A stretch of 64,000 bases of DNA from positions 1,130,158 through 1,194,157 of the forward strand of contig OZ244723.1 in NCBI GenBank assembly GCA_965219325.1, read 5' to 3'. The notes under the pieces were generated by a model. It was not told where the DNA came from, ran no database searches, and saw only the letters and a list, made by a program, of their open reading frames with translations. Below, piece after piece: positions 1-64,000 of this stretch. Position 1 is the stretch's first letter. Each line of letters starts with the position of its first letter. The position numbers and the translations under genes are program-made. The stretch is from Dehalococcoidia bacterium. GTDB lineage: Bacteria > Chloroflexota > Dehalococcoidia > Lucifugimonadales > UBA2962.

Positions 1-2
1 CG

Positions 3-16788: not shown

Positions 16789-16827
16789 CGTTATCTCCTT
16801 CTCGGCAGTCCCGGCCGCCGTCTCTGA

Positions 16828-23893: not shown

Positions 23894-23911
23894 GAGAAGG
23901 AGAACCCCAGA

Positions 23912-26194: not shown

Positions 26195-26241
26195 ACGGAT
26201 GCCGGTCGGCCCCAGGACCGTCCGGAGAGGAGGTGCGAACG

Positions 26242-30479: not shown

Positions 30480-30483
30480 GCTG

Positions 30484-30894: not shown

Positions 30895-30980
30895 ACCATT
30901 TCCCCCTGCACGGCCATGTATGCGGCCCCTTTTTGCGTTTTCGGCCCTGCGGTCGTGGGCGCTGCCTGAGCGCCGACTCC

Positions 30981-40249: not shown

Positions 40250-40338
40250 GGTTCCTCCTTGAACCGCACCAGCCGCTCAGGAAAGTCGGCTGGGAAGCCA
40301 GGGGGTCTTCTGCTGTGATAAATGCGCTGTCGCGGCAT
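40246..40338 (-). pseudogene. 30-codon 5' fragment of the small HTH gene, fused to and overlapping the giant gene 1 start
   Basis: MPRQRIYHSRRPPGFPADFPERLVRFKEEP*. Its AAGGAGGAA codons double as the RBS of the ATG at 40249. Confidence 0.7.
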
Positions 40339-41418
40339 CGGTCCTTCCGGAAGACGGCTGCAAGCTCCCTCCTACGGGGATGTCCGGGGCCGTCCGATAT
40401 CCCCAGGCAGGACGGTATGCGGAACGCAAGCTCACGCGGTCAGCCCGTCCCGGAGTCCTGTGGGAGGCCGCCGCTCTGCTTGTCGGAGGGCTGGGGCGGC
40501 CTCCCCCAGCTTTATCCATGTGTGCGGGCTTTCTTGTTGCCCTTCCTGCGGGCGGGGTCCGCGCGGGTACGCGTACACCCGCGCGGACCTTCCTCTCCTC
40601 CCGACGCCACATGCCATCAGGAATTATCCGGCGGATCGGGCCCTTCCACGCATGGCCCCTCACCGAGTTCGTTGACCGCCGCCACACCGAATTTGACGGG
40701 TCCCACATAGACGATCTTGAAGTATTTGAAACCCGTCGGGGTGCCGTCGGGGTGCTCTGGTGGCGTGGTGGATCCAGGGTGCTCCACCTCGTATTCGTCC
40801 AGCAGGTAGCCGCCGCAGCCCTCGCTGGCTGAGCCGTAGATGCGGAACTCCGTGATCCATTGCGCGCCGGTTCCGGTCTCGTCCGGCGCGTCCCACGACA
40901 CGATTTGCCCACCAATGCCGCTGACGGGCGAGTAGGACACAGACACATTGCGGACCGCGCCCGGGATCTCCGAGGGGCCCAGACCACCGGGCGGAACGGC
41001 AACTGCCAGCAAAATTTCACGCACCGACAGCGTGTAGGTGCCTGGGTCCAAGCCCGCTACTTCCAGGTGGTAGATGCCGGTCGCGGTCGCTGTGTAGGTC
41101 AGTCGGCTGTTAAGTCCCTCGCCGCCGTCGTCGTCCTCACTGATGTAGTCGGAGACGTTGAAGGAGTCGCCGTAGAGCGCCAGGATCGGGTCCGCCTGGG
41201 AGCCGCGGCCGGTGTCCGCGCCCTCCAGGTCGAACCGGTATCGCTTGCCCGCCTCCAGATCGACACGGAACCCGTCCAAATCCTCGCCAGGGTCGATGTT
41301 GCCCGTGGCCGAGGCCCCGACCTCGACCCGGCCGGTGGTGGTGGTGTCTCTGGGAAAGTCCGTGTCGGCCTCCGAGGCGCCGTTCGCGCCCAGCACGATC
41401 ACCGACAGCGTGTAGGTG
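40309..41418. repeat. about 1.1-kb near-identical direct repeat, copy 2
   Basis: See 31197..32306. Confidence 0.85.
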
Positions 41419-45662: not shown

Positions 45663-45923
45663 GGTTCCTCCTTGTGCTTGTGCGGGGATACGGGACGCAG
45701 CCCGTCCCGTCCCCAGGCGTCAGCGGACGCGGAGGACGCGGGCGTCGGGCGTTGCATGGTCGAAGGCTGTTTCGGGTGAGTGCGGGACGTGCGAAGCCCG
45801 CCGCAAGGCGTCCTTCAAGGACACTGAGAACTTCGGGCGCACGCAGAGAGAGCGGCGATGGGAGAGGATCGGGCCTGCCGGTATGAGCCGGAGGCGGCGA
45901 GGGGGCCAGAGCGGAGGGAAATC

Positions 45924-45936
45924 GGGGGGGGGGGGG
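45924..45936. repeat. homopolymeric G13 (C13 on the minus strand) tract in the divergent intergenic region
   Basis: Read directly. Lies 262 nt upstream of the giant gene 2 ATG and 324 nt upstream of the kinase-regulator ATG. Confidence 0.9.
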
Positions 45937-46139
45937 TGAACGTCTGTGCTAGACCGCGACGGAGGACGGACCGGGTCGCGGAGACCACGTCAACACGGGC
46001 CGCTGCGACCAGTTTCTCCACTCCGTCTATCGGCCTGTCGAATCCCACGTTAAACCCTCCCCGCCGTACGTTGGGGCAAAGTGCCCATCAGTATGACGGA
46101 CAAAGTTGTGGAAAGTCAGTGTAATATCTGCATTTTAGC

Positions 46140-46158
46140 GACCAATCGAGGACCAATC
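46140..46158 (+). promoter_or_regulatory. direct repeat GACCAATC-N3-GACCAATC (11-bp phasing), candidate OmpR/PhoB-type response-regulator box
   Basis: Two perfect 8-mers at 46140-46147 and 46151-46158, 4 nt upstream of a -35-like hexamer. Confidence 0.4.
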
Positions 46159-46162
46159 CTGC

Positions 46163-46192
46163 TTGTGTAATGTGCCGTATGGCCTCTATAAT
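46163..46192 (+). promoter_or_regulatory. sigma-70-like promoter candidate for 46260..48641
   Basis: TTGTGT (46163-46168), an 18-nt spacer, then TATAAT (46187-46192), about 68 nt upstream of the ATG. Confidence 0.4.
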
Positions 46193-46259
46193 GGGCGCGC
46201 CGGGCCGTGTGGGACTAGGGGGGCCGCGGGCCGTCCATGCCTGAACGGAGGTCGAGAGG

Positions 46260-48641: not shown

Positions 48642-49099
48642 CAGAGCCGAAAGAGGAAACGGAGCCACTGTGTTCCCTCTTTGCGGCCCTCAGCCCTGTC
48701 ACGCCATAATAGTCAAGCCCCGGTTAGGCTCCGGGCTTTGGTAGGTGCCCCGAGCCACATCTCGAAGATAGTGCCATCTACCGTCCACTTAGGCCCACCT
48801 ATGGGGACTCGAACCGCATTTCATCCACGGCGAGCTACCCCACAACGACCAAGGATCCTCCCTAACTTGCCAAATGGTCTACGACCGCAAAGTGCCAACG
48901 GCGATGAGACGCCCGTATTGGGGAAACTCTGCAAGCTGATAGGCAACAAGCTCAAAGACCGCAGTCGGTTTGCCACCAAATCCCTTTTGGCCCAGTAGCT
49001 AACTCATTTGACTCGTGTTGAGCGTCGTCATGAGATGCTCCCGCCGGGTTGAACTATCTTAGGCCGAGATGAATATCGAGATCGGAGGAATCACTACCC

Positions 49100-49390
49100 A
49101 TGCCACAGTTCACTACGACAACTCTGGAAGAAGCGCAGAGGCTCACGGGCGGCGGAAAGAGGGAGAAGGAACTGGCCGCATACCTTGAGAGCGTCAACGG
49201 CCTGTCCGCTGGAACTGCGGGCAAAGTGGTCCCGTCGGAGGGCGAGAGCCTATCGACGGTGAGGCGCAGGCTGGGCGACGCTGTGCGCAGGTCGGGTCGG
49301 GACATCGAGATAAGACGAACGGATGACGCCGTCCATTTCTGGATCAAGGAGGGGCGTCGCCGGGGTCGCCCGAGGTCCCGTCGCGAATAG
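49100..49390 (+). CDS. small AT-hook-like DNA-binding protein (96 aa), copy 1
   Basis: ATG after GGAGGAA. C-terminus RRRGRPRSRRE (RGRP core). About 90% identical to 51508..51798. Confidence 0.6.
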   Translation: MPQFTTTTLEEAQRLTGGGKREKELAAYLESVNGLSAGTAGKVVPSEGESLSTVRRRLGDAVRRSGRDIEIRRTDDAVHFWIKEGRRRGRPRSRRE

Positions 49391-51938: not shown

Positions 51939-52367
51939 TCAATCCAACTTCAGTGGCACCTGGAGCCTTAAGACCTCTTCGGGCACCCCGAAGTGCTCGG
52001 CGACTTGCCAAGAGTGGGTGAATCCCCGCTCGACAACCTCGCGCACGTCCAGCAGAAGTGTGTGGGCAAAGTCCTCGGCCTCCCGCTCGAACTTGTGGGC
52101 GAGACCGGTGTGTTTGCGAATCCAGAGGTGGTTGCCCGGGTGCATGAGCAGGTGCCCGATGGCGTGAGCCATGCACCATCGCTTCCACTCCGGCTCAAGC
52201 CTGTGCGCGATGCATACGAATTCGCCGAGCTTAAGCTCCTTATGTTTGCGCAGGGGCCGCTGCCATATCTCCAGTTCCAGGATGTCGGCCACTCCCTTAG
52301 CGTCGACCCGGCCGTGGAGCCTGAGCATGCGGCGAAGCTCCACGGCCCTTCGCTGCGCACGGTTCAT
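51939..52367 (-). CDS. ImmA/IrrE-like metallopeptidase-fold protein with a variant zinc motif (HAIGH instead of HExxH)
   Basis: ..WCMAHAIGHLLMHPGNH.. aligns with the ..AHELGH..LH.. core of the family. Its ATG overlaps the stop of the upstream XRE gene. Confidence 0.6.
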   Translation of the reverse strand: MNRAQRRAVELRRMLRLHGRVDAKGVADILELEIWQRPLRKHKELKLGEFVCIAHRLEPEWKRWCMAHAIGHLLMHPGNHLWIRKHTGLAHKFEREAEDFAHTLLLDVREVVERGFTHSWQVAEHFGVPEEVLRLQVPLKLD

Positions 52368-52744
52368 CAGCCACCCTGCTTCTTCCTCCTCCGGCGCTCC
52401 CGCACGAATCGTATGAATTCCCGTATCTCCTCGAGGTCCTCGATCGGAAGGCCTGTGACGGAGTCCCTGAAGGAGACGTCGGCCTCCTTGAGAAGCTCGG
52501 CCTCGACGACGTCCATGCCAAACAGCGACTCGGTGCTGACCTCGAACAGATAGGCGAGCTCGAGCAGGTGGTCGGCGTTGGGCTTCATCTTCCCGGCCTC
52601 CCAGCACCAGACGGAGTGATTGCTGACGCCGACCAGCCTGGCGACCTGCTTCTGGGTCAGGCCGGCCCTGTTCCTGGCCTCCCTGATGCGGGCGCCGATG
52701 TCCTTCCACTTGTAGCCGTCGTCCTGCGGCGTGTTCGCGGTCAA
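52367..52744 (-). CDS. XRE-family HTH repressor (ImmR-like partner)
   Basis: IGARIREARNRAGLTQKQVARLVGVSNHSVWCWEAGKMKP. Confidence 0.8.
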   Translation of the reverse strand: MTANTPQDDGYKWKDIGARIREARNRAGLTQKQVARLVGVSNHSVWCWEAGKMKPNADHLLELAYLFEVSTESLFGMDVVEAELLKEADVSFRDSVTGLPIEDLEEIREFIRFVRERRRRKKQGG

Positions 52745-52804
52745 GGCTGACGATCGGCTCGGGGAAGGGATGTGGTCACGGGGAAAGGGTCAGCACGAAC
52801 GTTC

Positions 52805-52833
52805 TTGTGTTGCTGTCAATCCTATCATAGAAT
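52805..52833 (+). promoter_or_regulatory. sigma-70-like promoter candidate in the divergent XRE/XRE intergenic region
   Basis: TTGTGT (52805-52810), a 17-nt spacer, then TAGAAT (52828-52833). Confidence 0.35.
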
Positions 52834-52843
52834 GAAGCTCTAA

Positions 52844-53119
52844 GTGCACTTATGGTATCACCACGAGGAGCGAATTCACCGCATGGCGCGCACGGGACGG
52901 ACGGTCGTCCTACTGAAGAGACGGGTCCTCTGGGACCGGCTGGATCTGCTGAACAGGTCGCAGAGCTGGCTGGCCCGCGAGGTTGGGATCAGCCCCAGCT
53001 ACCTGTCGAGGCTGCTGCGGGACGGACGTGCTCCGTCCGGGCGCATCCGGCGCCGGTTGCAACACGTTCTGGGCTTCGACGGCTTCGACGACCTGTTCGA
53101 GCTGGAGCGCCCGGGTTGA
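52844..53119 (+). CDS. XRE-family HTH regulator (start uncertain: GTG 52844 or ATG 52883)
   Basis: ..LLNRSQSWLAREVGISPSYLSRLLRDGRAPS..RRRLQHVLG...FDDLF. Paralog of 30484..30894. Confidence 0.65.
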   Translation: MHLWYHHEERIHRMARTGRTVVLLKRRVLWDRLDLLNRSQSWLAREVGISPSYLSRLLRDGRAPSGRIRRRLQHVLGFDGFDDLFELERPG

Positions 53120-53439
53120 AGCGGCGCTGGCGCTTTCTTCCCCCCGCTTCCTGCTGCGGCGGGCTCAGGATCGATGACCGTCTGCTCGTCTATGCCACGG
53201 CCCAGTTGCCGGAGGACTTCCCCCAGCGTCTGTGCCGGTTCAAGGAGATGACCGGGCTGAGCTGGAACCAGCTCTGCGACGTCCTGGGGGTGAGCAGCAA
53301 GCAGATGCGCCGGTGGCGGAAGGGGATCGAGCCGTGCGGCGGTGCGATGCTGGCGATCATCTGGGTTGCATCCCAGGTTTCGGGCGGCCTGGACGTGATC
53401 ATGGGCGAGGGATTCGCGGCGTCCTTCGCGACGGTCTGA
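53116..53439 (+). CDS. small HTH protein, paralog family member (start uncertain; TTG overlapping the upstream stop is proposed)
   Basis: ..LPEDFPQRLCRFKEMTGLSWNQLCDVLGVSSKQMRRWRKG.. Confidence 0.45.
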   Translation: MKRRWRFLPPASCCGGLRIDDRLLVYATAQLPEDFPQRLCRFKEMTGLSWNQLCDVLGVSSKQMRRWRKGIEPCGGAMLAIIWVASQVSGGLDVIMGEGFAASFATV

Positions 53440-53443
53440 CAGC

Positions 53444-53704
53444 ATGCCCCGTCAGCGGAGGACATACAGGAAGCTGAGACACGTCGTTCCCGAGGAGTTC
53501 GGGGAGAGCCTTGTTCGCTTCAAGGAGGCCTCGGGCCTGCCGTGGGGAGAGATCGCGCGGCTCATCGGGAGCACCGAGTTGGCGCTGTGGCGGTGGCGGA
53601 ACGGGGTGCATCCCAACTGGCCGCACCTGCTTGCCCTGCTGGACCTTGCGGAGGGCCTGGGGCTGGCGCACACGCTTCCCATACGCAGGGTACGTCCCCG
53701 GTAG
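53444..53704 (+). CDS. small HTH protein, paralog family member (86 aa)
   Basis: MPRQRRTYRKLRHVVPEEFGESLVRFKEASGLPWGEIARLIGSTELALWRWRNG...LGLAHTL. Confidence 0.6.
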   Translation: MPRQRRTYRKLRHVVPEEFGESLVRFKEASGLPWGEIARLIGSTELALWRWRNGVHPNWPHLLALLDLAEGLGLAHTLPIRRVRPR

Positions 53705-53995
53705 GGCTCCGCAACCGAACCCCACCTCGCATGGATGGCTGCCGTCGCCGAACGGCCGGCGGCTTATGAGCTGACGTCCTTTCCCACATCGTCAGGCGCC
53801 TTCGCCCGTGGTCCGGGTGTGTCCCTTCGATCAACCGACCTCTCTCCAGGTGGACCGTTCATCGGTGAACGCGCCTAAGGGACCTTATCGCGGGGTTCTA
53901 CCGGGCGACACACTTGCCATACAGAACGGTAGTTCTTTCGTGCGTCCGGAGCAATTCGCCTCGGACGCCGGGTGGCCGGTGACGAGGAGGTTGTC

Positions 53996-54208
53996 ATGCA
54001 AGGCGGGAAGAGGCCGAACGAAACTAGAGCTAAACGCGGGCAGTCGCCGGAGCCGCATATAGGTACGGTCACCTTCAATCCCGGTCCCGACGCCGAGGAC
54101 CGGTTGCGCAGGCTGTTCATCCTGCTGCTGGGCTTGGCGAACGAGGCCCGGACACCTGGGGAGGGTAGGGACGGGGGTGCCTGTAGCGATGCCGGGGGAG
54201 GGGAATGA
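53996..54208 (+). CDS. small hypothetical protein (70 aa)
   Basis: ATG after GAGGAGG. ATGA overlap with the next gene. Confidence 0.4.
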   Translation: MQGGKRPNETRAKRGQSPEPHIGTVTFNPGPDAEDRLRRLFILLLGLANEARTPGEGRDGGACSDAGGGE

Positions 54209-55044
54209 CGGCGCCGGATCCTTCCCTCACGGTCATCAGCCTGGGCGGAGGCGTGCAGTCCTCTGTCATGGCCCTGATGGCAAGCGAAGGCGCATTCGAC
54301 AGGATTCCCGACTGCGCCATCTTCGCCGACACCGGGTGGGAGCCTCCCAGCATCTATGAACACCTCGACTGGCTCTCAGGCCGGCTCCGGTTTCCGCTCC
54401 ACATCGTGGACAATGGCCGGAGTCTGCGTGACGACACCAGGGCCCTCACCAACCACTCGGACTCTCTCAACTACGTAGACATCCCCGTGTATCTCAGGGG
54501 ACGCGACGGTCAGGCCGACGGCATAGGCAGGCGCCAGTGCACCCAGAACTACAAGATCAGGCCGGTCCGGACCATGATCCGCGAGCTGTTGGGGGTGGGG
54601 AAGGGAGAGCGGGTTCCGGCCGGCACCACTGTCGAGTTGTGGCTCGGCATTTCGACCGACGAGTTCAGCCGCACACGCCCATCTCGCGAGCGGTGGATGC
54701 ACAACCGCTATCCGCTGATCGAGGCGCGGATGTCGCGGCGGGACTGCACGGACTGGTGGGAGGCGCGTTACGACAGGCCGCTGGAGAGATCGGCATGCGT
54801 GGCCTGTCCCTACCAGTCACGCAAGCGGTGGGTGGAGACGATGCACAGATGGCCCGAGCTGTTCGCCGAGGCTGTGGAGATTGACGCCAGGATGCGTGGC
54901 AGGCTGGCGTTTGCGAAGGAGCCGTACCTTCATCCCCGCCGTATACCGCTGGCCGAGGCGGTGAAGCTTGACGAGGCGGAAGTCGGCGCAGGCGGGCAGG
55001 CCGACGGCTTTGGCAACGAGTGCGAGGGGCACTGCGGAGTCTGA
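54205..55044 (+). CDS. PAPS-reductase/PP-loop family protein (phage/ICE type)
   Basis: N-terminal PP-loop-like VISLGGGVQSSVMAL. C-terminal Cys pair CVACPYQS. Confidence 0.65.
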   Translation: MTAPDPSLTVISLGGGVQSSVMALMASEGAFDRIPDCAIFADTGWEPPSIYEHLDWLSGRLRFPLHIVDNGRSLRDDTRALTNHSDSLNYVDIPVYLRGRDGQADGIGRRQCTQNYKIRPVRTMIRELLGVGKGERVPAGTTVELWLGISTDEFSRTRPSRERWMHNRYPLIEARMSRRDCTDWWEARYDRPLERSACVACPYQSRKRWVETMHRWPELFAEAVEIDARMRGRLAFAKEPYLHPRRIPLAEAVKLDEAEVGAGGQADGFGNECEGHCGV

Positions 55045-55251: not shown

Positions 55252-56865
55252 TTGACGGAAAAGGGAAAAGCGAACGCGGAGCCGAATCGCGCGGCGGTCT
55301 ACGCCCGGGTGTCGGACAAGAGCCAGGCTGCCGAGGACAGGACCTCCATCTCGGAGCAGGTCGCGGACATGGAGGCGTACTGCGAGCGCAGGGGGCTGAC
55401 CATCGTCGCGCGCTACCAGGAGGTGGGCAGGGGCTGGTCGAAGAAGCGTCCTGAGTTCCAGAGGATGCTCGAGGAAGCCCGCCAGGGGCGATTCGACACG
55501 ATCGTTTGCTGGAAGTCGGACCGTCTAAGTCGGGGAGTATACCCGGCCGCGGTGCTCATGGAGGTGGTCGAGGCCTACGGTATCACCATCGAGTCGGTGA
55601 TGGACTCCATGGACATGAAGTACTTCGGGCTGATGGCAGCGATCGGCAAGATCGAGATCGACAACTTTCGCGAGCGTGCGTCGATGGGCAAGCGGGGAGC
55701 GGCCAAGCGGGGGCGCATACCGATCGGGGGGTTGCCCTACGGATATCGCAACGGGGAGGACGGGAAGGCCGAGGTGGAGGAGACGGAGGCGGCCGTCGTC
55801 GGGCGCATCTTTCGCCAGTACGTGCATGAGGGCGTGGGTACGCGAACGATCGCCCGGATGCTGGAGGATGACGGAGTACGTCCTCACCAGGGCGGGAGGC
55901 GGTGGCACCAGTCCCATGTCTATCGCATCCTGGGGAACGAGACCTACAGGGGAGTGTGGAACTACGGCCAGACGCGTACGACGAGGACAGATCAGGGCAA
56001 GAAGGTTCGTAATCGGCCGCGCGAGACCTGGATATCGGTGGCGGTGCCGCCACTGGTGGACGAGGAGACATGGGACCGCGCCCAGAGGCTCAAGAAGGAA
56101 CGCCTGAGGGGCTCAAGGCGGAACACGAAGGTCTTCTATCTTCTACAGCACATGATGAGGTGCGCCGAGTGCGGGACGCTGCTTGGGGCCAGGTCCACCT
56201 GGACCACGACCAGAACGCGCAACGGCAAAAGGCAGCGCTACAGGATGCCCAGTCCCCGCCGGTACTACTGCTGCTACGGCTCGGCTCGACGTGTGACCTG
56301 TCGTGAGCGATCACACATCAGGGCGGAGCAGTTGGAGGGATTGGTGTGGCGCGAGGTGAGCGAGGTGCTGAGAAACCCCGAACTGATCCTGTCCGGCATC
56401 GATGTGGTTGATTCGGTGGCGGGCAACGGGGTGGCTGAGAAGGCGGTCAGCGTAGAGCGTGAGCTGCGGACGGTCCAGAGACAGGAGGACCGGGCGATCG
56501 ACCTGTATGTGGCGGGCAGGATAGACGAGCGGCAGTTCGAGCGGCAGCGTGGGCGGATCACCGAAAGGCTTGATGTCCTGCGGACGAAGCTGGAGCATAT
56601 CCGCGTCCAGGAGGCAACCGCCGCCGACAGGCGGCTGGCGGCGGAGAACATCATCGCCTGGATGGATAAGATCGGGAATGACCTGGACGAGCTTGCTCCC
56701 GAGGAGCGCAGAGAGATCCTGATGACGATCGTTGAGGGGATCACCGTGGACCGGCACAACAGGGTGGATATCGCCCTGGCCGTGCCGACCGGGGAGGCGT
56801 TGTCGATTGATTCTCAGTCATCGACATGTCCGGCTATTCGTTCACGCCCGACGAGGCCACCCTAA
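55252..56865 (+). CDS. large serine recombinase (integrase of the element)
   Basis: TTG start after GGAGG. Resolvase-type N-terminus AAVYARVSDKSQ...ICWKSDRLSRG, a recombinase domain, a Cys-rich zinc-ribbon region (CAECG...CCYG) and a coiled-coil tail. Confidence 0.9.
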   Translation: MTEKGKANAEPNRAAVYARVSDKSQAAEDRTSISEQVADMEAYCERRGLTIVARYQEVGRGWSKKRPEFQRMLEEARQGRFDTIVCWKSDRLSRGVYPAAVLMEVVEAYGITIESVMDSMDMKYFGLMAAIGKIEIDNFRERASMGKRGAAKRGRIPIGGLPYGYRNGEDGKAEVEETEAAVVGRIFRQYVHEGVGTRTIARMLEDDGVRPHQGGRRWHQSHVYRILGNETYRGVWNYGQTRTTRTDQGKKVRNRPRETWISVAVPPLVDEETWDRAQRLKKERLRGSRRNTKVFYLLQHMMRCAECGTLLGARSTWTTTRTRNGKRQRYRMPSPRRYYCCYGSARRVTCRERSHIRAEQLEGLVWREVSEVLRNPELILSGIDVVDSVAGNGVAEKAVSVERELRTVQRQEDRAIDLYVAGRIDERQFERQRGRITERLDVLRTKLEHIRVQEATAADRRLAAENIIAWMDKIGNDLDELAPEERREILMTIVEGITVDRHNRVDIALAVPTGEALSIDSQSSTCPAIRSRPTRPP

Positions 56866-57782
56866 GGGGCCTGTGGGACCGGCCCTACACGATGGACATG
56901 GTTGGAACCTACCAGCGCATCGTCTGGTTCAACCGCGATCTCATGCAGCTCTACAGCGAGCAGGAGGCCCTAGGCGAGGTGAGACGCTTCATGCTCGCCG
57001 GGGGTGGAACCGTGGTCGACACGACCAACTGGGACCTCGGGCGCAGCCCGGGGACCCTGGCCCGCATCTCCCGCGCGACCGGGCTGAACATCGTCATGGG
57101 CTGCAGCCACTACGTTCCCCTGCTGCGCCCGCCCGACATGGACGAGCGCACGGAGGAATCCATATGCGATCGCATCGTGGCCGACATCACCGTCGGAGTG
57201 GGTGATACGGGCATAAAGTCGGGGGTGATCGGCGAGGTCGGCAACGTGCACCCGCTGGACGACAATCAGCGCAAGGTCCTGCGTGCCTCCGCCCAGGCCC
57301 ATCTGGATACCGGCGCCCCGATCTCGATACACCCCGGCGGCGTGGACGAATCTCCCATGGCCATCTTGGAGGTCCTGGCTGAGGCGGGCGTCGACCTTAC
57401 ACGGGTGATCATGGGCCACCTCGATTTCGCGGTCCGCGATAACGCGGTCCTAAAGTCGGTCGCAGAGACCGGGTGCTTTCTGGAGTACGACACCGTCGGC
57501 GCGGAGGACAGCGGAATGAGCTACATGGGGGCCGAGCTCCGGATGCCCACCGACGGCGAGCGGCTCTCGGCACTGGACTTCCTGATGGAGGAGGGATACG
57601 GGGACCGAATACTGCTCGCCCAGGACGTGTGCTTTAAGAAGATGCACGTGGCCAGCGGCGGCAAGGGCTTTGCGCACATAGTCGAGTCGATCGTGCCGCG
57701 CCTGCGAAAGCGCGGCTATACCCAGGACCAGATCGACGGCTTTCTGGTAAGGAACCCCGCCGCTGCATTGGCCTTCAGCTAG
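56826..57782 (+). CDS. phosphotriesterase-family (PTE/PHP-like) hydrolase, apparently 5'-truncated
   Basis: Has GEVG, APISIHPGG, IMGHLD and LLAQDVC metal-ligand blocks but lacks the N-terminal HxH block. The frame is closed by a stop at 56808, inside the recombinase 3' end. Confidence 0.7.
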   Translation: MSGYSFTPDEATLRGLWDRPYTMDMVGTYQRIVWFNRDLMQLYSEQEALGEVRRFMLAGGGTVVDTTNWDLGRSPGTLARISRATGLNIVMGCSHYVPLLRPPDMDERTEESICDRIVADITVGVGDTGIKSGVIGEVGNVHPLDDNQRKVLRASAQAHLDTGAPISIHPGGVDESPMAILEVLAEAGVDLTRVIMGHLDFAVRDNAVLKSVAETGCFLEYDTVGAEDSGMSYMGAELRMPTDGERLSALDFLMEEGYGDRILLAQDVCFKKMHVASGGKGFAHIVESIVPRLRKRGYTQDQIDGFLVRNPAAALAFS

Positions 57783-58121
57783 AGATACCGGCCCCTGCTG
57801 TCGGTCTCCCACAGGCGAGCGGAGAACCCAGTTCGCCCGACCGCCTAGCGCCTGCTTCGCAAGACCTCCCGACTGTCGCGTCTACTCGACGATGGGTAAC
57901 CAATCGGCAAGCAAAGTGGCGATACTCGTGGCGTTCGAAACTTGGTGGATCTACTTAGGTAGTTGTGCCGATTCTTGCTTTCCAAGAGCTAGTGTGTGTC
58001 AGGACTAAGGATTCAAGATGCGCTGGAGTCAGCCCCGTTGCGTTGGAGGAACCGGTGGCGACGAACCTGGGTCGCCCTAGTAGCACCTAGTAAAGGGTGA
58101 GAGTAATTGATTAGCGGGGTG

Positions 58122-59640
58122 TTAGTACTACTTTGTTAGATCATGGTGGGCGGTTTCGAGGACGCATGAGATCTTCGATGACCTGGGAGAACATCCGCTC
58201 AAGTACCAGTCGTCTGATCGATGCCAGGCTCTGACGCTGCTGTGGGGGGGGAACCCCCGGGTCGGCCCCGGCACTTCCGTCGATCTGTGGTCCTCGCCGA
58301 GGCCGGAGGGTTCGTGCTCTTCGATGTCCGATCCGTAGTCCTGGAGGAGTGCCAGGTAACAGTGGGCCAGCATGCACAGCGCCACATGGCGGTGGAACCC
58401 GGACCATAGCCTGCCCTCGTAGTCGTCGAGTCCCACCTCACCCTTCGCGTCCTGGTAGAAGCGCTCGATTATCCAGCGGCTGTGAGCCAGCTCGACAATA
58501 TCCTCCAGGCCCACCCGGTCCATTCCCCAGGCGAAGTGGTACTTGACTTCTCCACGATCTCCATCCACGGGACGTTCGCCGATCAGCCACCCCACGGACG
58601 ACAGGTGTGTCCCGCGATACCCTGCTCGATACACTCTTGTCCTGGTGCACAGCTTGCGCAGAACGCCCCTGGTTCCCTTCCTCCAGGCGACGATGCGCCA
58701 ACTGTCCTGCTCAAGTCCTTCCAGTAAGGAACTGGCGTCTTTGACGGGTACCCTGTCCTCGAGCCGCTTCGCTTTTCTCGGGCGACCGATGCCACGATAC
58801 GGCGGAGGAGGTTCATCCCCCGGATACCGCTCAACTTGATCTGCGATACGGAACCGGGCGATGGATGGCACACCTACGACATACGGCAGCCGTCGATCTT
58901 CAAGGCCGTCCAAAAAGGGTGGCTGATCGCCATAGCCCGCATCCGCCACCACCGCCCTCGTCCGTACGCCGGCATCCATCCCGGCATCTATCAGTCCCAG
59001 GGCGATCTCACCCTTGGTCTCAAAGGCCAACCCCGCAGGCACCCCGGCCACAGACCTGCGCTCGCCATCCTCGACCCAGGACTGTGGAAGATACACCCGG
59101 GACGTGAGCGGCCAGTCATACACCCGGTCCACATAGTGGGTCGACACCAGCACCTCGCAGTTGTCCACACGACCCAGGGTTCCCGAGTACTGACGCGCTA
59201 CTCCAACCGACTGGCTCCCCTTCTTGGCGATGCCGGTGTCGTCCACGATCTGAACGCCCCCACCCACGCTGGCATGAACCATCATGTGCCCGATCCTGAG
59301 CCGGTCCATCTCCTGCGGGTCCCATCTCGTCCGGGTCAGAAACTCCTGCAGACGCTGCGAGTTGGTTCCCGCAACCGCCCTGCCAATCTCCGATGCGGTC
59401 TTGCGCCGAAGGTCTGACAGGAGCCCCGTCGTGTAGCGCTCCATCGCGTGCCGACTCTCCGCCCTGCGCACCAGCGAGCCGAACGGCCTCAGAAACTCGT
59501 CAAGGTCATCCAGGGGTGAGGCCGCAGCCTTCAAGATCGTCATCGCGCCTCTCCGTCAAATGGTGCGATAACAACCTGCCACCACGACTCTCACTATCAC
59601 CAGCTCTTCTGAGGTCTCTATCTAACAAAATAGTATTAGA
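58122..59640 (-). mobile_element. IS701-family insertion sequence (about 1.5 kb), apparently intact
   Basis: Imperfect terminal inverted repeats TTAGTACTACTTTGTTAGAT (58122-58141) and ATCTAACAAAATAGTATTAGA (59620-59640). Flanked on both sides by CGGGGTG (58115-58121 and 59641-59647). Confidence 0.8.
58128..59543 (-). CDS. IS701-family DDE transposase (471 aa)
   Basis: ..VQIVDDTGIAKKGSQSVGVARQYSGTLGRVDNCEVLV.. is the hallmark block of IS701/IS4-like transposases. Confidence 0.85.
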   Translation of the reverse strand: MTILKAAASPLDDLDEFLRPFGSLVRRAESRHAMERYTTGLLSDLRRKTASEIGRAVAGTNSQRLQEFLTRTRWDPQEMDRLRIGHMMVHASVGGGVQIVDDTGIAKKGSQSVGVARQYSGTLGRVDNCEVLVSTHYVDRVYDWPLTSRVYLPQSWVEDGERRSVAGVPAGLAFETKGEIALGLIDAGMDAGVRTRAVVADAGYGDQPPFLDGLEDRRLPYVVGVPSIARFRIADQVERYPGDEPPPPYRGIGRPRKAKRLEDRVPVKDASSLLEGLEQDSWRIVAWRKGTRGVLRKLCTRTRVYRAGYRGTHLSSVGWLIGERPVDGDRGEVKYHFAWGMDRVGLEDIVELAHSRWIIERFYQDAKGEVGLDDYEGRLWSGFHRHVALCMLAHCYLALLQDYGSDIEEHEPSGLGEDHRSTEVPGPTRGFPPHSSVRAWHRSDDWYLSGCSPRSSKISCVLETAHHDLTK

Positions 59641-59816
59641 CGGGGTGGCGGTGTCAGACTCGATGGTGAGGGTGCGAACGGGTCGGAGGACACCCGTATA
59701 GTTGGCCTGCTGTGGGCGCGCTGTGGGCGCGATGCCAATGGCAGGGATACGTGTGGATCTGAGCGATTCGATGCCCGTGTAGGGGTTGTGGTGGTGGATG
59801 GGAGATATCTTAGGCT

Positions 59817-60098
59817 TTGGGTATGTGTGAGGCCAAAGCCTTCCCTCCCTGTGAACGCGACGAGCTGATGGCGTTGGTCAAGAGGCTGCAGGGACAGAAC
59901 GCCCAGTTGCAACGGCAGGTTGCCCAGTTGGCGGCGGCCAACGAACGGTTGAGCAAGCAACTCGCAGAGCTGCAGCGAGCCGGAAAGCGTCAGGCGGCTC
60001 CGTTCTCCAAGGGCAGGCGGACCTCCAGCCCCAGGCGGCCTGGGCTCGGGCCAGATTGCCAAGCCGATGGGCGCTTGCGCGAAGACACCCAGGAGTGA
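59817..60098 (+). pseudogene. N-terminal coiled-coil fragment of an IS66-like transposase
   Basis: ..LQGQNAQLQRQVAQLAAANERLSKQLAELQRAGKRQAAPFSKG... then no catalytic domain. It runs into the SDR gene. Confidence 0.4.
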
Positions 60099-60103
60099 AG
60101 GAA

Positions 60104-60925
60104 GTGAGCGGTGAGCGGCTACCAGAGTTTTCACTCGACGGCCGCGTCGCCCTGGTTACCGGCGGGGGCCGGGGCATCGGACGTGCCATCGCCTCGACGC
60201 TGGCGGAGGCTGGCGCTGACGTCGCCGTGGCCGCCCGAACCCGCTCTGAGATAGATTCGGTGGCGGACGAGATACGGGCGCTCGGCCGCCGGTCCGTTGC
60301 CATTCCCACCGACGTCTGTGTCTCCTCCGAGGTGGACGCGATGGTGGCGATGGCGGAGCGTGAGCTAGGGCCGTTGGACATCCTCGTCAACAACGCCGGA
60401 GCCCACATCACGGTGCCCCTAGTACCGATACCCGGCCGTCCGCTGGGGCCGCCGCAAGTAAGCCGCGTCGCCGATCACCCGTTAACGAACGGGGAGTGGG
60501 ATTTGATCTACACCACCAACGTCAACTCCGTAATGTTCGGCTGCCGCGCCGTCGCGCCAGGCATGCTGGACAGGCGCTACGGCAAGATCATCAATATCTC
60601 GTCCAGAACCGCACAGCAGGCCGTCGAGTACGCGGCCCCGTACAACGCTTCCAAGGCCGCGGTCAACATGCTTACCCGGGTACTCGCGCTGGAGTGGGCA
60701 TCCTACGGCATCCGGGTAAACGCCATCGGCCCGGGCGATTTCAAGACCCAAATGAACCCCCTGGACGACCCCCGTGAGCGTGACCGCATGATGGCCCGCG
60801 TCCCCTTGGGCGTGGCGGGGAGCCTGCGGGACCTCGGCCTCTTGGCGGTCTACCTGGCCAGCCCCGCGTCCGACTACATGACCGGTCAGGTGGTCTACCT
60901 GGACGGCGGCGATACCGCAAGATGA
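60104..60925 (+). CDS. short-chain dehydrogenase/reductase (SDR)
   Basis: VALVTGGGRGIG, NNAG, YNASKAAV. GTG start after AGGAG is proposed. Confidence 0.85.
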   Translation: MSGERLPEFSLDGRVALVTGGGRGIGRAIASTLAEAGADVAVAARTRSEIDSVADEIRALGRRSVAIPTDVCVSSEVDAMVAMAERELGPLDILVNNAGAHITVPLVPIPGRPLGPPQVSRVADHPLTNGEWDLIYTTNVNSVMFGCRAVAPGMLDRRYGKIINISSRTAQQAVEYAAPYNASKAAVNMLTRVLALEWASYGIRVNAIGPGDFKTQMNPLDDPRERDRMMARVPLGVAGSLRDLGLLAVYLASPASDYMTGQVVYLDGGDTAR

Positions 60926-61082
60926 CTTACCTAGACCTGCTCAATACCGACCGAGTGCCAGGCGTGTCGACGACGGCATCGCCTCGCGTGCACGACCCAA
61001 AAGGGGACCGGCCTCGGCGTGTGGTACCGCATCGTCAAGCAGCAAAGCGGCGATCTGTGGGCCCGGCGCCGGTGGTGGGATA

Positions 61083-62159
61083 CTAGTCAACCTGCCCCCG
61101 CGACGGCGTACCGCCGGGGACGGGCGCCTGTGCGGAGATCAGACCTTCGACCTTCATCTCCGTCCACACGTCCGCCGGGATGGGAAGGGTCGCCATCACC
61201 GCGTTCTCCTCCGCCTCCGCCGCACTGCGAGCGCCCGGCACGGTGGACACGACCGCCGGGTGGGCGATGCCGAACTGGAGCGCTGCCGCCTTCAGCGGGA
61301 CGCCGTGCCGGTCACAAACGGCCTTAAGGGCACGCGCCCGGCCGACCACTTCACCGGATGCCCTCTGGTAGTTGTGTCGTGCGCCGACGTCCGTCTCGAC
61401 GTCTGGGTCGGAGGCCAGCAGCCCGCTGGCATAGGGAGCGCCGAGGAATACACCGATGTTCCGCTCGGTGCAGAACGGCAGCAGATCATTGAGCGCGCTG
61501 TGATCGAGCAGGTTGTACCGCATGGCTATGAGGACGCAGTCGTATTTGCCATGCTCCGCCATCTCGATGAACTTGTAACTGTTGTCTACGCCCGCGCCAA
61601 TGGCCCGCACCGTGCCGTCGGCGCGAAGCTCCTCGAGCGCAGCGTAGGCCTCGGTCGTGATCGTGTCTTTGACCTCTTTCCATTCTTTCGCCGGAGCGGG
61701 GTCGTGGACCAGGACGACATCGATACGGTCGAGGCCCAGGCGGCCCAAACTCTCTTCGATCGACCGGAGAACACCGTCACGCGAGTAGTCGAGGTGCTCG
61801 AACGCCGGAGGTAGGTCGGAGAAGGGGGGGGGGTAGTCGGTCCCCTCTCGCTCCGGCGCATCGACCAGTAGCCGCCCCACCTTGGTGGACAGCACGAACG
61901 AGTCGCGGTCGACCGTGCTCAGCACCGAGCCCACGACGGCCTCGCTGCGGCCGAAGCCATACCCGGGTGCGGTGTCAAAAAAGTTGACCCCGACGCCGAG
62001 GGCGGCACGTATGGCCCCCGCCGCCGCGTCAGGGTCGAAAGTCGTGTACATGCCGGCCAGGCCGGAGCCGCCCTGGCCCATGGCGGTTACGTCCAGGCCA
62101 GTGTTGCCGATACGCCGCTTCTCTAACTTCGACATTCGCCGCTCGATCGATTCGGTCAC
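61083..62159 (-). CDS. aldo/keto reductase family oxidoreductase
   Basis: ..IGNTGLDVTAMGQG...FFDTAPGYGFGRSE..VG....STKVGR.. Confidence 0.8.
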   Translation of the reverse strand: MTESIERRMSKLEKRRIGNTGLDVTAMGQGGSGLAGMYTTFDPDAAAGAIRAALGVGVNFFDTAPGYGFGRSEAVVGSVLSTVDRDSFVLSTKVGRLLVDAPEREGTDYPPPFSDLPPAFEHLDYSRDGVLRSIEESLGRLGLDRIDVVLVHDPAPAKEWKEVKDTITTEAYAALEELRADGTVRAIGAGVDNSYKFIEMAEHGKYDCVLIAMRYNLLDHSALNDLLPFCTERNIGVFLGAPYASGLLASDPDVETDVGARHNYQRASGEVVGRARALKAVCDRHGVPLKAAALQFGIAHPAVVSTVPGARSAAEAEENAVMATLPIPADVWTEMKVEGLISAQAPVPGGTPSRGQVD

Positions 62160-62173
62160 TTCACTTTGCGTGC

Positions 62174-63082
62174 ATGAATGGCAGTATATCGACTGTTATA
62201 GTGGCCGGGAACAGGGGGATTGAAGTGACCGAATCGATCGACATGACCGGGCAAGTGGCCCTGGTGACCGGCGCCAGCCGTGGGCTGGGCCGCGAGTTCG
62301 CCCAGGCGATAGCTGGAGCCGGAGCCACGGTGGCGCTGGTGGCCCGTTCGGAGTCGGGTCTAAAAGAGACGGCGGCGGCGATAGAGGCCGTCGGTGGCCG
62401 GACCATTGCCCTGGCCTGCGACGTGGCCGACCAAGACTCGGTGCGGGCGACCGCGCAAGAGGCCGAGCAACGGCTGGGCCCGCTTAACGTGCTGGTCAAC
62501 AACGCGGGCGTTGCGGGACCGACGGGCCATGACTGGGAGCTCGACCCGGCCGAGTGGTGGCGGGTATTCGAGGTCAACGTGCTGGGTCAGTTCTACTTCG
62601 CCCAGGCGGCCATGCCCGGCATGGTGGCTCGCGGCCGCGGCCGCGTGGTCAACGTCTCCAGCGCCGCGGCCGGATTCCCCAGCCCGGGTTACTCCGCCTA
62701 CTGCGCCGCCAAGGCCGCACTCACCTTTTGGACCGAGTGTTTGGCGGGCTCGGCTGCCCACTACGGTGTTACGGTCATGGCCTACCACCCCGGCACTGTG
62801 AGGACTGACATGACCGAGTACTCGGCGGCCCGGCCGGATACGAAAGTCGGCAACCCCATCGTCGACTACATACGCGACGCGTTCGCCGCCGGCACGGACG
62901 ACTCGATGGAGGACGCGGTGGAGCGGCTTTTGCAGGTTGCGGCCGGAGTCTATGACGCCCTCCCGGGCCGCCAGATCGGGGTCAACGACCCGCCCGAGTT
63001 GCTGCTGCCTAGGGCCGCCGAGATCGAGGAGCGCGGCCTCTACGCCGTCCGCATCAACGATCTCGAAGGAGGCTACGCGTGA
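62174..63082 (+). CDS. short-chain dehydrogenase/reductase (SDR); true start may be ATG 62243
   Basis: VALVTGASRGLG, NNAGV, YCAAKAAL. Confidence 0.8.
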   Translation: MNGSISTVIVAGNRGIEVTESIDMTGQVALVTGASRGLGREFAQAIAGAGATVALVARSESGLKETAAAIEAVGGRTIALACDVADQDSVRATAQEAEQRLGPLNVLVNNAGVAGPTGHDWELDPAEWWRVFEVNVLGQFYFAQAAMPGMVARGRGRVVNVSSAAAGFPSPGYSAYCAAKAALTFWTECLAGSAAHYGVTVMAYHPGTVRTDMTEYSAARPDTKVGNPIVDYIRDAFAAGTDDSMEDAVERLLQVAAGVYDALPGRQIGVNDPPELLLPRAAEIEERGLYAVRINDLEGGYA

Positions 63083-63182
63083 ACGTCAACCCGGAAGTCG
63101 GCTCCTGGTTCGCCGAAGCCGAGTTGGTGTTTCGGGAGTAGTTCGACCCTCACCGGTCTCCACTACTCTGTAACTGGACAGG

Positions 63183-63704
63183 CTAGGTGCCGAGCGGTCT
63201 GGTCAGCCACAGTTGGCGACCGCCGCTCAGTTCGGCAGCCGGGCCGCCGCCGCAGGAGAATCCTAGACTCTCGTAAAGGGCAATCGCTGGGCCGTTTCGC
63301 TCGTTGGTGTCGAGCGTTACGAGCGAGCATCCTCGGGCCCGGGCCCTCTCCACAGCCGCCTCTACCAGCCGTCCGCCAAGACCGCGGCGCCGACTCCCGC
63401 TTGCCACGAACAGATCCTCAATATACGCCTCGCCACCCGTGGTCCAGATGTCGCGGCGGTATCGCTGCTGCAGGAACCCGGCGCACGCCCCGCCCTCGTC
63501 GAAGGCCACCAGGTAGTCGGTGTCCGGGTCGTCGATCAGGCCGGCGATCCTCTCGGCGAACTCGGCCCGGGAGGGCTGCCGGCGCCCAAGTTCACGCCGA
63601 AACGCGTCGGCCATGGCCGAGATGCACGGCACGTCTGCCTCTGCGCCCAACCTGATGTGAAAGCCGTCGTCCAAGTTTCGATTCTGGCCTGCGTTTCTCT
63701 CCAT
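63183..63704 (-). CDS. GNAT-family N-acetyltransferase
   Basis: ..YIEDLFVASGSRRRGLGGRLVEAAVERARARGCSLVTLDTNERNGPAIALYESLGF.. Internal ATG at 63704 chosen as start. Confidence 0.8.
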   Translation of the reverse strand: MERNAGQNRNLDDGFHIRLGAEADVPCISAMADAFRRELGRRQPSRAEFAERIAGLIDDPDTDYLVAFDEGGACAGFLQQRYRRDIWTTGGEAYIEDLFVASGSRRRGLGGRLVEAAVERARARGCSLVTLDTNERNGPAIALYESLGFSCGGGPAAELSGGRQLWLTRPLGT

Positions 63705-63784
63705 TAGCCCTGCGGTCCGGCGGCTGTATAATAGCCGACCGCAGGCGACCTCGCCGTCGCCGCGGCAGACTGGAGGAGGGATGG

Positions 63785-64000
63785 TTGGAGAAGCTCGGGA
63801 CACACCTTCTGCTGGAGCTCGAGGGCTGCAGGTCTGATCTCCTTGACGACCTCGAACACATAAAGAGGTCGATGGTCAGTGCCGCCGAAGAGACCGGCGC
63901 GACCATCGTCGGGCAGACTTTTCACAAGTTCTCGCCCACAGGCGTTACCGGGGTCGTCGCCATCGCCGAGTCGCACCTGTGCATACACACCTGGCCCGAG
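63785..64000 (+). CDS. speH: S-adenosylmethionine decarboxylase proenzyme (small bacterial/archaeal type), 3'-partial at window edge
   Basis: TTG start after GGAGGAGGG. ..GTHLLLELEGC...ATIVGQTFHKFSPTGVTGVVAIAESHLCIHTWPE contains the ES processing site and the HTWPE block. Confidence 0.75.
   Translation, partial: MEKLGTHLLLELEGCRSDLLDDLEHIKRSMVSAAEETGATIVGQTFHKFSPTGVTGVVAIAESHLCIHTWPE

What the first reader, a model, noticed from the sequence alone, without database searches (positions are those of the whole stretch)
55252..57782. Large serine recombinase abuts a 5'-truncated phosphotriesterase-family gene: probable right junction of the element inside that gene
The PTE-family ORF has every metal-ligand block except the N-terminal HxH (GEVG, ISIHPGG, MGHLD and AQDVC are present). 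Its frame is closed by a stop at 56808 inside the recombinase gene, and the recombinase ORF tail (..IDSQSSTCPAIRSRPTRPP) reads into PTE sequence. Large serine recombinases often integrate within coding genes, with the recombinase gene at the element edge. The junction therefore probably lies at about 56800-56830. No matching 5' PTE fragment occurs elsewhere in the window, so the left end lies beyond base 1 or has been rearranged. That would make the element longer than 56 kb.
Basis: partly seen in the sequence, partly recalled or inferred. Interest (0 to 1): 0.6.

Follow-up and report, generated by a model that had tools for sequence, protein, structure and literature searches.

The report
Conjugative element inserted in phosphotriesterase-like gene
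A large mobile DNA element of an uncultured Dehalococcoidia bacterium has inserted, using its own serine recombinase, into a phosphotriesterase-related gene and cut off the start of that gene; this is a well-known kind of event, mapped here to a two-base crossover.

Summary
The observation and its interpretation both hold. The recombinase ORF (55252-56865) has the full large-serine-recombinase (LSR) domain set. The next ORF is a phosphotriesterase-related gene that lacks its first ~33 codons, including the HxH metal ligands. Intact 351-aa orthologues up to 96% identical exist, and DNA homology to them starts at 56817.

The same recombinase/PTE junction occurs in three other independent assemblies. 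The reciprocal left junction, a 5' PTE fragment ending ...GTCATYGA followed by foreign DNA, occurs in two further genomes. Together these place the crossover on the GA dinucleotide at 56823-56824. They also rebuild a roughly 50-bp attP with dyad symmetry centred on that GA.

The element is an integrative conjugative element, not a prophage. It carries a VirB4-like ATPase plus candidate coupling protein, VirB6-like and relaxase-like genes, and an ImmR/ImmA-like switch.

Interrupted and intact PTE alleles interleave, and the recombinase and PTE distance patterns disagree, so the element has integrated or excised repeatedly. The window contains neither a 5' PTE fragment nor an attP right arm. The left end therefore lies beyond base 1 or is lost, and I could not check this in the source genome.

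This is a new member of a known kind and of modest interest.

The parts
55252..56865 (+). Large serine recombinase gene (537 aa). The family-conserved protein ends at ...SIDSQSST (codon ending at 56826). The last 13 codons and the stop (56825-56865) are read from host PTE DNA.
   Evidence: Pfam Resolvase, Recombinase and Zn_ribbon_recom. Nucleophile motif YARVSDKSQ is invariant across homologues. C-terminal tails diverge after SST. PDB SprA/YokA E 2e-18. NCBIfam CcrB 5.7e-37 and XisF 1.7e-25, both below cut-off.
56797..56850 (+). attR. The attP-derived left half-site is 56797-56822 (GCGTTGTCGATTGATTCTCAGTCATC). The crossover dinucleotide GA is 56823-56824. The attB-derived right half-site is 56825-56850.
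   Evidence: Homology breakpoints against intact genes and against attL in L017/L022. The base just left of GA follows the element at attR and the host at L017's attL. Dyad symmetry of the rebuilt attP peaks at this GA.
56826..57782 (+). 3' fragment of a phosphotriesterase-related (PTER-like) gene. It corresponds to residues ~34-351 of the intact protein and lacks the HxH ligands. The ORF is intact.
   Evidence: dN/dS is 0.05-0.13 against intact and other interrupted alleles. The closest solved structure is PTER 9efa, E 1e-70 for the intact orthologue.
51939..55044 (.). Regulatory and accessory module next to the recombinase: IrrE/M78 protease plus XRE repressor (51939-52744, minus strand; ImmA/ImmR-like), small HTH genes (52844-53704, plus strand), and a PAPS-reductase-like gene (54205-55044, plus strand).
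   Evidence: Pfam and phrog_424. The same genes sit in the same order in L003, L004 and L005.
20310..30479 (+). Conjugation module: TrbL/VirB6-like (20310-21446), VirB4-like ATPase (23912-26194), coupling-protein-like ATPase (25807-28833), Replic_Relax relaxase-like protein (28830-30479).
   Evidence: Pfam. NCBIfam VirB4-like CD1110 family, E 5.5e-68. Colinear with L004.
6300..17577 (-). Conserved backbone of DNA-processing genes: helicase (6307-8700), DUF6094 methyltransferase (9239-10276), Cas4-like exonuclease (12885-13907), Rad52-like recombinase (14318-15082) and primase (15305-16558). SSB and RadC lie between these in the colinear related elements.
   Evidence: Pfam and PHROGs. 84% identical over 11 kb to L033 and colinear with L031 and L032; homology stops at about 6300.
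30473..49389 (.). About 19 kb of cargo: two giant surface proteins (31505-40249 and 40617-45662, minus strand) and a hybrid histidine kinase/response regulator (46260-48641, plus strand). It is flanked by a 519-bp direct repeat of the relaxase gene's 3' end.
   Evidence: Pfam. Absent from the L004 element. Repeat 29954-30472 / 49390-49908 is 87.5% identical.
1..6299 (.). Unassigned left region (an IS630-like transposase at 3749-4854 and a predicted lipoprotein at 1661-3337). Probably variable cargo of the element. It contains no left junction.
   Evidence: No homology to any fetched locus. No 5' PTE fragment or attP right arm.
57783..64000 (.). Host chromosome on the right. It carries an IS701-like IS (58123-59638) and an SDR/AKR/SDR block, then a GNAT gene (63183-63803) that directly follows PTE in related genomes.
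   Evidence: Synteny of 63163-64000 with L004, L005 and L012. IS inverted repeats. Pfam.

Best explanation
Window position 56823-56824 is the right junction (attR) of an integrative conjugative element. Its large serine recombinase recombined an element site (attP) with a chromosomal site (attB) inside codons 31-34 of a phosphotriesterase-related gene, just after the HxH metal-binding motif.

attP overlaps the last codons of the recombinase gene. After integration the recombinase ORF therefore runs on into host DNA, and the PTE gene keeps only a 318-codon 3' fragment without HxH.

The crossover is the non-palindromic dinucleotide GA.
- Reconstructed attP: TTGTCGATTGATTCTCAGTCATC-GA-GATGGACAGGAACTAATCGACTT
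- Reconstructed attB: ...CACGAGCACCTCGTCATT-GA-CATGTCCGGCTATTCG...

The left junction, which should carry the HxH-bearing 5' fragment, lies outside the window. The element is therefore larger than 56.8 kb.

Shown: the junction, the truncation, the recurrence of the junction, the reciprocal left junctions, and the conjugation genes. Inferred: that this recombinase catalysed the event, that the element can still excise, and that the ImmR/ImmA-like module controls it.
For: - Intact 351-aa orthologues exist (96% identical), and window homology to them is limited to 56817-57837.
- The identical junction, with the same upstream gene order, occurs in L003, L004 and L005, whose recombinases are 88%, 88% and 80% identical. 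This rules out an assembly artefact.
- Left junctions in L017 and L022 keep PTE codons 1-34 and then switch to a shared foreign sequence, GATGGA..GGA.CTAATCGAC. L017's host flank is 94% identical to L029, which has the intact gene.
- attL and attR overlap by GTCATYGA. The Y position is element-like at attR (C/G/C/C against T in the nearest intact alleles) and matches the nearest intact host allele (T, L029) at L017's attL. That leaves GA as the crossover.
- The rebuilt attP matches its own reverse complement at 15-16 of 26 positions. Random expectation is 6.3, with P about 6e-5 to 2.5e-4, and the best centre is exactly on that GA.
- The window fragment is closest to the intact L001 allele (94.5%), and L003's is closest to intact L029 (96.6%). 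The recombinase and PTE distance patterns disagree. This indicates repeated integration or excision.
- Conjugation genes are present and no capsid, portal or tail hits were found.
Against: - The left junction of this particular element was not seen. The source genome (a 3.25-Mb contig carrying the identical recombinase, P0121) could not be read.
- The attP right arm comes from other genomes, and I could not see their recombinases.
- No excised attP or circular form was found in metagenome or viral collections.
- The coupling-protein, VirB6-like and relaxase assignments rest on weak Pfam hits (E 3e-5 to 2.5e-9).
- In L005 the element upstream of ImmA is replaced by IS elements, so such elements can decay in place.
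Confidence: 0.88

Rival explanations
1. The integration happened as described, but the element in this genome is now an immobile remnant. Its left end and the 5' PTE fragment have been lost or moved by IS-mediated rearrangement, so no matching attL exists.
For: No 5' fragment or attP right arm occurs in 56.8 kb. An IS630-like transposase lies at 3749-4854 and an IS701-like IS at 58123-59638. The L005 relative has lost its conjugation genes to IS elements while keeping the junction.
Against: The backbone from helicase to recombinase is complete and colinear with relatives, and the recombinase ORF is intact. Relatives carry more than 10 kb of variable DNA beyond the helicase without reaching an end. 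So absence within 6.3 kb is expected even for an intact element.
Confidence: 0.15
2. The PTE gene naturally starts at the ATG at 56826 and is a short HxH-less paralogue. Its position next to the recombinase is coincidental.
For: An in-frame ATG exists at 56826, the ORF is intact, and dN/dS is low.
Against: Twelve aligned orthologues have the N-terminal 33 residues. DNA identity to intact genes stops abruptly at 56817. Each truncated copy examined is preceded by the recombinase. Complementary 5' fragments exist.
Confidence: 0.01
3. The element is a prophage that uses a serine integrase.
For: It has an XRE/M78 switch, a Rad52/exonuclease/SSB recombination module and a PAPS-reductase-like gene that is common in phages (phrog_424). 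The VirB4-like protein weakly hits a terminase PHROG.
Against: No capsid, portal or tail families were found. The VirB4-like CD1110 family match is E 5.5e-68, and TraG P-loop, TrwB, TrbL and Replic_Relax hits are present. A viral-contig search with the recombinase found no relatives.
Confidence: 0.04
4. The join is an assembly chimera between a mobile element and a chromosomal contig.
For: The source is a metagenome-assembled genome.
Against: The same join, to the base, is present in three other independent assemblies with 8-20% sequence divergence.
Confidence: 0.01

Closest known systems
Gene-interrupting elements moved by large serine recombinases: Bacillus subtilis SPbeta (SprA/SprB, in spsM), the skin element (SpoIVCA, in sigK), the Anabaena fdxN element (XisF), and Listeria A118 (in comK)
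   Same: A large serine recombinase gene sits at the element edge. Insertion is inside a protein-coding gene at a short site with a 2-bp crossover. Intact and interrupted alleles coexist among relatives. SprA/YokA is the closest solved structure (E 2e-18), and XisF is an NCBIfam hit (1.7e-25).
   Different: The element here is conjugative, not a phage or a defective phage. The host is an uncultured Dehalococcoidia bacterium. The target is a PTER-like amidohydrolase. No directionality factor and no regulated excision is known. All family scores are far below the equivalog cut-offs.
Firmicutes-type ICEs with serine recombinases (Tn5397/TndX, Clostridioides CTn elements, some streptococcal ICEs)
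   Same: A serine recombinase is combined with a VirB4-like ATPase of the CD1110 family, a coupling-protein-like ATPase and a relaxase-like protein. Integration is site-specific.
   Different: The conjugation proteins are only distantly related (below the curated cut-offs). Cargo, phylum and target site all differ. The identity of the relaxase is uncertain.
ICEBs1 ImmR/ImmA regulatory module
   Same: An XRE-type repressor adjoins an IrrE/M78 metalloprotease gene next to the integrase end of the element. The pair is conserved in L004 and L005.
   Different: ICEBs1 uses a tyrosine integrase and a tRNA attachment site. Function here is inferred from domain content only.
SCCmec cassette chromosome recombinases CcrA/B/C
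   Same: CcrB is the best NCBIfam match to the recombinase (E 5.7e-37). It shares the large-serine-recombinase architecture.
   Different: The score of 128 bits is far below the cut-off of 900. SCC elements are not conjugative and they integrate at the 3' end of rlmH.

Membership tests
Large serine recombinase (serine integrase) | N-terminal resolvase-type catalytic domain with the nucleophilic serine | tested here: met
   PF00239 at residues 14-155, E 1.6e-25. The YARVSDKSQ motif is invariant in 12 homologues.
Large serine recombinase (serine integrase) | Large C-terminal DNA-binding region: recombinase domain plus zinc-ribbon domain | tested here: met
   PF07508 at 177-284 and PF13408 at 297-369. 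Aligns to SprA residues 59-511.
Large serine recombinase (serine integrase) | Coiled-coil motif embedded in the zinc-ribbon domain | not tested
   No structure prediction was run. Residues ~380-480 are covered by the SprA alignment.
Large serine recombinase (serine integrase) | Short (~40-50 bp) attP and attB sites with imperfect dyad symmetry around a non-palindromic central dinucleotide, and no long shared core | tested here: met
   attL and attR share only GTCATYGA. The rebuilt attP shows 15-16 of 26 symmetric positions centred on GA (P about 1e-4), and attB shows 12 of 26. Caveat: the attP right arm comes from related elements in other genomes.
Large serine recombinase (serine integrase) | Catalyses attP x attB recombination without host factors | not testable with these tools
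   Needs a recombination assay.
Integrative conjugative element | VirB4-type conjugation ATPase | tested here: met
   NF045971 VirB4-like CD1110 family, E 5.5e-68 (below the equivalog cut-off). TraG P-loop, AAA_10 and TraC hits.
Integrative conjugative element | Coupling protein and relaxase | tested here: inconclusive
   TrwB_AAD_bind E 3.3e-5 and DUF87 for 25807-28833. Replic_Relax E 2.5e-9 for 28830-30479. No NCBIfam hits.
Integrative conjugative element | Integrase, and both element boundaries (attL and attR) flanking the element | tested here: inconclusive
   attR and the integrase were found. attL is not in the window. Matching attL sites were seen only in other genomes.
Phosphotriesterase / PTER amidohydrolase family (PF02126) | Complete binuclear metal site: HxH, bridging Lys/Glu, two His, Asp | tested here: not met
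   The window copy starts at profile position 42 and lacks HxH. GEVG, IHPGG, GHLD and QDVC are present. Intact orthologues have THEHL.
Reversible gene-interrupting elements (skin / SPbeta type) | Regulated precise excision that restores the interrupted gene | not testable with these tools
   Only indirect evidence: intact and interrupted alleles interleave, and interrupted fragments show dN/dS of 0.05-0.13 with no stops.

The most novel reading that the evidence does not exclude
The element acts as a reversible switch on the PTER-like gene. The interrupted alleles in four diverged genomes (dS up to 0.47 between them) show no frameshifts or stops, and their dN/dS (0.05-0.13) matches that of intact alleles. 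This would be expected if excision regularly rebuilds a working gene. In addition, attP lies inside the recombinase's own 3' end, so the recombinase carries a different C-terminal tail when integrated (host-encoded) than when excised (read on for 24-25 codons into the element's left end). That difference could bias directionality or stability.
Probability: 0.12. Interest if true: 0.6.

Novelty: new member of a known kind. Interest (0 to 1): 0.35.

Why it matters
The analysis yields a natural serine integrase with attB mapped to the base pair and attP reconstructed. That is the information needed to test it as an orthogonal genome-engineering tool.

It also documents a conjugative element family that is abundant in uncultured Dehalococcoidia. 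More than 2000 helicase homologues were found at E <= 1e-30, and there are several copies per genome. The family carries giant surface proteins and defence genes as exchangeable cargo. Conjugative gene flow in this phylum appears little described: two full-text searches found nothing specific.

Biologically it is a routine gene disruption by a mobile element.

Tried and rejected
- **Source genome.** Four exact-protein look-ups failed (the window recombinase, P0121, P0126 and the lipoprotein at 1661-3337), so I could not reach the left junction in the source genome.
- **Walking left in relatives.** I used helicase homologues to read L031, L032 and L033. Homology to the window ends at the helicase (about 6300). 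Another 10 kb of unrelated cargo follows with no PTE fragment.
- **Metagenome scans.** One scan for the attP right arm and one for attL-type PTE 5' ends found nothing.
- **Viral-contig scans.** Scans with the recombinase and with both attP arms found nothing.
- **Conserved tail in the excised form.** I considered whether the excised form encodes a conserved recombinase C-terminal extension, because the stops align in L017 and L022. The 18 differences fall 4/7/7 on codon positions 1/2/3, which is not a coding pattern (hand count). I rejected this as evidence.
- **tRNA-like motif.** GGTTCGAATCC lies near the left ends of L017 and L022, but ARAGORN calls no tRNA.
- **Second recombinase.** P0127, on the L005 contig, lies in an unrelated context and was uninformative.
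- **Literature.** Searches found no description of these Dehalococcoidia elements.
Full report
**1. Observation**

The ORF at 55252-56865 (+) encodes 537 aa from a TTG start preceded by GGAGG. It has Resolvase, Recombinase and zinc-ribbon domains, which is the full large-serine-recombinase (LSR) architecture.

The next ORF runs from the ATG at 56826 to 57782 (318 aa). It matches Pfam PTE (E 2.7e-66) only from profile position 42 onward.

Its frame is closed upstream by TGA at 56808. The recombinase ORF runs 41 nt past the crossover (56825-56865), to its stop codon, in another frame of the PTE DNA.

GEVG, ISIHPGG, MGHLD and AQDVC are present, and HxH is not.

**2. The gene is truncated, not naturally short**

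A search of 5.8 billion proteins returned 880 relatives. The closest are 351 aa long and cover 100% of the window protein at up to 96% identity.

In the alignment they all carry about 33 additional N-terminal residues, MASQLSGKVQTVLGAIDPSAMGVTITHEHL. The window frame reads FSVID, and only VIDMSGYS... aligns.

At DNA level the window matches contigs with the intact gene (L001, L002) only from 56817 to 57837, at 94.5% identity over the PTE fragment itself.

The closest solved structure to the intact protein is a phosphotriesterase-related protein (PTER, 9efa, E 1e-70).

**3. The junction recurs**

The LSR has a 100% identical database entry (P0121) on a 3,247,277-bp contig, and relatives at 88, 88, 86 and 80% identity. 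I fetched three of their contigs (L003, L004, L005).

All three show the same order: ImmA/ImmR-like genes, small HTH genes, a PAPS-reductase-like gene, the LSR, then a 318-320-aa PTE fragment. The junction sequence is the same to the base: TGTCGATTGATTCTC[A/G]GTCAT[C/G]GACATG. The fourth relative's tail (P0124) also reads into PTE.

This excludes an assembly artefact.

The LSR protein family is conserved up to ...SIDSQSST, and the tails after that differ. Two relatives stop immediately because their host PTE has ATGA at that point. The tail after SST is therefore an incidental read-through into host DNA.

**4. The reciprocal left junction exists elsewhere**

I scanned one genome per prokaryotic species for the degenerate GVTITHEHL coding pattern. 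This gave 25 loci. Most hold full-length PTE-family genes, and a few are cut by the end of the contig or locus.

Two loci hold only the 5' end. In L017, and in L022 (OZ242262.1), PTE codons 1-34 are followed by foreign DNA:
- L017: ...CACGAGCACCTCGTCATTGA|GATGGACAGGAACTAATCGAC...
- L022: ...CACGAGCACCTGGTCATCGA|GATGGAGGGGAGCTAATCGAC...

L017's host flank is 94.3% identical over 2.4 kb to L029, which has the intact gene. That homology stops exactly at ...GTCATTGA.

**5. Crossover and att sites**

attL keeps PTE sequence through GTCATYGA, and attR keeps it from GTCATYGA onward. So 8 bp are shared.

At the Y position, attR has C, G, C and C (window, L003, L004, L005), while the nearest intact alleles have T. 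L017's attL has T, like its host relative L029. That position therefore comes from the element at attR and matches the host at L017's attL. This leaves GA (56823-56824) as the exchanged dinucleotide.

I joined the window's left arm to the L017 or L022 right arm to rebuild attP. It has TGTCGATT/AATCGACA and CATC/GATG symmetry, with 15-16 of 26 positions symmetric. Random 26-mers from the window average 6.3, with P(>=15) = 2.5e-4 and P(>=16) = 6e-5. The best symmetry centre is exactly that GA. attB shows weaker symmetry (12 of 26) about the same GA.

This is the expected anatomy of serine-integrase sites. The caveat is that I could not see the recombinases of the L017 and L022 elements.

**6. 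What the element is**

Pfam, PHROGs and NCBIfam scans give the following:
- Helicase (6307-8700)
- DUF6094 methyltransferase
- Cas4-like exonuclease
- Rad52-like protein
- Primase (15305-16558)
- TrbL/VirB6-like protein (20310-21446)
- VirB4-like ATPase of the CD1110 family (23912-26194, E 5.5e-68)
- Coupling-protein-like ATPase (25807-28833)
- Replic_Relax protein (28830-30479)
- Two giant surface proteins
- Hybrid histidine kinase
- XRE plus M78 pair

No capsid, portal or tail family was found. A viral-contig search with the LSR found no relatives. The element is best read as an integrative conjugative element.

The backbone from 17.6 kb down to 6.3 kb is 75-84% identical and colinear with three other copies (L031, L032, L033). 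All of these diverge beyond the helicase into unrelated cargo more than 10 kb long: GmrSD, a 4284-aa surface protein, and a histidine kinase.

**7. Left end**

The window contains no PTE 5' fragment, by protein or by DNA. It contains no attP right arm. It contains no second LSR or PTE copy.

Given the long variable region beyond the helicase in relatives, the left end most likely lies beyond base 1. The element is then larger than 56.8 kb. Loss by rearrangement remains possible, because IS elements are present and L005 is visibly decayed. The source contig could not be read.

**8. Mobility**

The window's PTE fragment is closest to an intact allele (L001, 94.5% nt, dS 0.17). L003's fragment is closest to intact L029 (96.6%).

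LSR distances give ((window, L003), L004), L005, whereas PTE distances put the window nearest L005. Interrupted and intact alleles therefore interleave, and the element and host histories differ. This requires repeated site-specific integration, precise excision, or both.

All fragment ORFs are intact, with dN/dS of 0.05-0.13, the same as for intact alleles. That fits either recent insertions or continued selection through reversible excision. The data cannot separate the two.

**9. Right flank**

Window 63163-64000 (GNAT and AdoMet decarboxylase) is syntenic with the DNA following PTE in L004, L005 and L012. The 5.3 kb in between holds an IS701-like IS with 19-nt inverted repeats (58123-59638) and an SDR/AKR/SDR block. 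So the right side is ordinary chromosome.

**10. Comparison and verdict**

This works like the LSR-mobilised, gene-interrupting elements (SPbeta/SprA, skin/SpoIVCA, fdxN/XisF, A118) and like serine-recombinase ICEs of Firmicutes.

The recombinase meets the tested defining features of the LSR family. ICE membership is supported for VirB4 and the integrase, weak for the coupling protein and relaxase, and lacks the second boundary.

Full-text searches found no description of these Dehalococcoidia elements.

It is a new member of a known kind. Interest is modest.

Noticed in passing
window 29954-30472 and 49390-49908: A 519-bp direct repeat (87.5% identical): the 3' end of the relaxase-like gene is duplicated as a separate 152-aa ORF. 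The two copies bracket about 19 kb of cargo (giant surface proteins and a hybrid histidine kinase) that is absent from the related L004 element. This looks like a nested insertion that carried its own copy of the gene end.
   Followed up: partly
window 6282-6490; L031 14124-14504; L032 16584-16790; L033 13672-13845: About 200 bp of the helicase gene's 3' end reappears (70-78% identical) downstream of different cargo in three related elements. This suggests a second cargo hot-spot flanked by a gene-end duplication. The window itself has no second copy.
   Followed up: partly
window 31505-40249 (-) and 40617-45662 (-): Two giant predicted surface proteins (2914 and 1681 aa) with fn3, cadherin-like, PPC and Calx-beta repeats and internally repeated DNA, carried as cargo. 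A related element (L033) carries a different 4284-aa surface protein at another position.
   Followed up: no
window 58123-59638: An IS701-like insertion sequence (DDE_5 transposase, 471 aa, minus strand) with 19-nt terminal inverted repeats. It lies between the PTE fragment and the host GNAT gene. Together with an SDR/AKR/SDR block (60056-63082) it is absent from L005 and L012, where GNAT follows PTE directly.
   Followed up: partly
source genome (3,247,277-bp contig; proteins P0126, P0248, P0257): The contig carrying the identical recombinase also encodes a second LSR (71% identical, with a different C-terminal tail) and two further helicase copies (87% and 85%). So there appear to be several copies of this element family per genome. 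The helicase has more than 2000 database homologues at E <= 1e-30.
   Followed up: partly
LSR homologues P0121-P0240 (C-termini): Across 120 homologues the protein is conserved up to an S-[IV]-x-S motif, after which tails vary widely in sequence and length (0 to more than 200 aa). Groups share identical tails. This suggests that attP overlaps the stop-codon region across the whole family, with several distinct target sites.
   Followed up: partly
L017 2403-2475; L022 1262-1190 (minus strand): In the excised (attP) configuration the recombinase ORF would read on for 24-25 codons into the element's left end, with the stop codons aligned in both loci. The differences between the two loci do not show a coding pattern.
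   Followed up: yes
L017 ~2580-2595; L022 ~1070-1085: A GGTTCGAAT[C/A]C motif, like a tRNA T-loop, lies about 200 nt inside both element left ends. ARAGORN calls no tRNA there.
   Followed up: partly
window 3749-4854 (-): An IS630-like transposase split into two overlapping ORFs (HTH part 4294-4854, DDE_3 part 3749-4453). It sits in the unassigned, lower-GC left region of the window.
   Followed up: no
window 54205-55044 (+): A PAPS-reductase-like gene (phrog_424, E 2e-43) lies immediately upstream of the recombinase in all four elements. Its role is unknown; it may act in DNA modification.
   Followed up: no
L017 5633-7392: The left end of the L017 element carries defence-type cargo: an AbiJ-like protein and a Pycsar-effector-like membrane protein. 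L031 carries GmrSD in the equivalent variable region.
   Followed up: no
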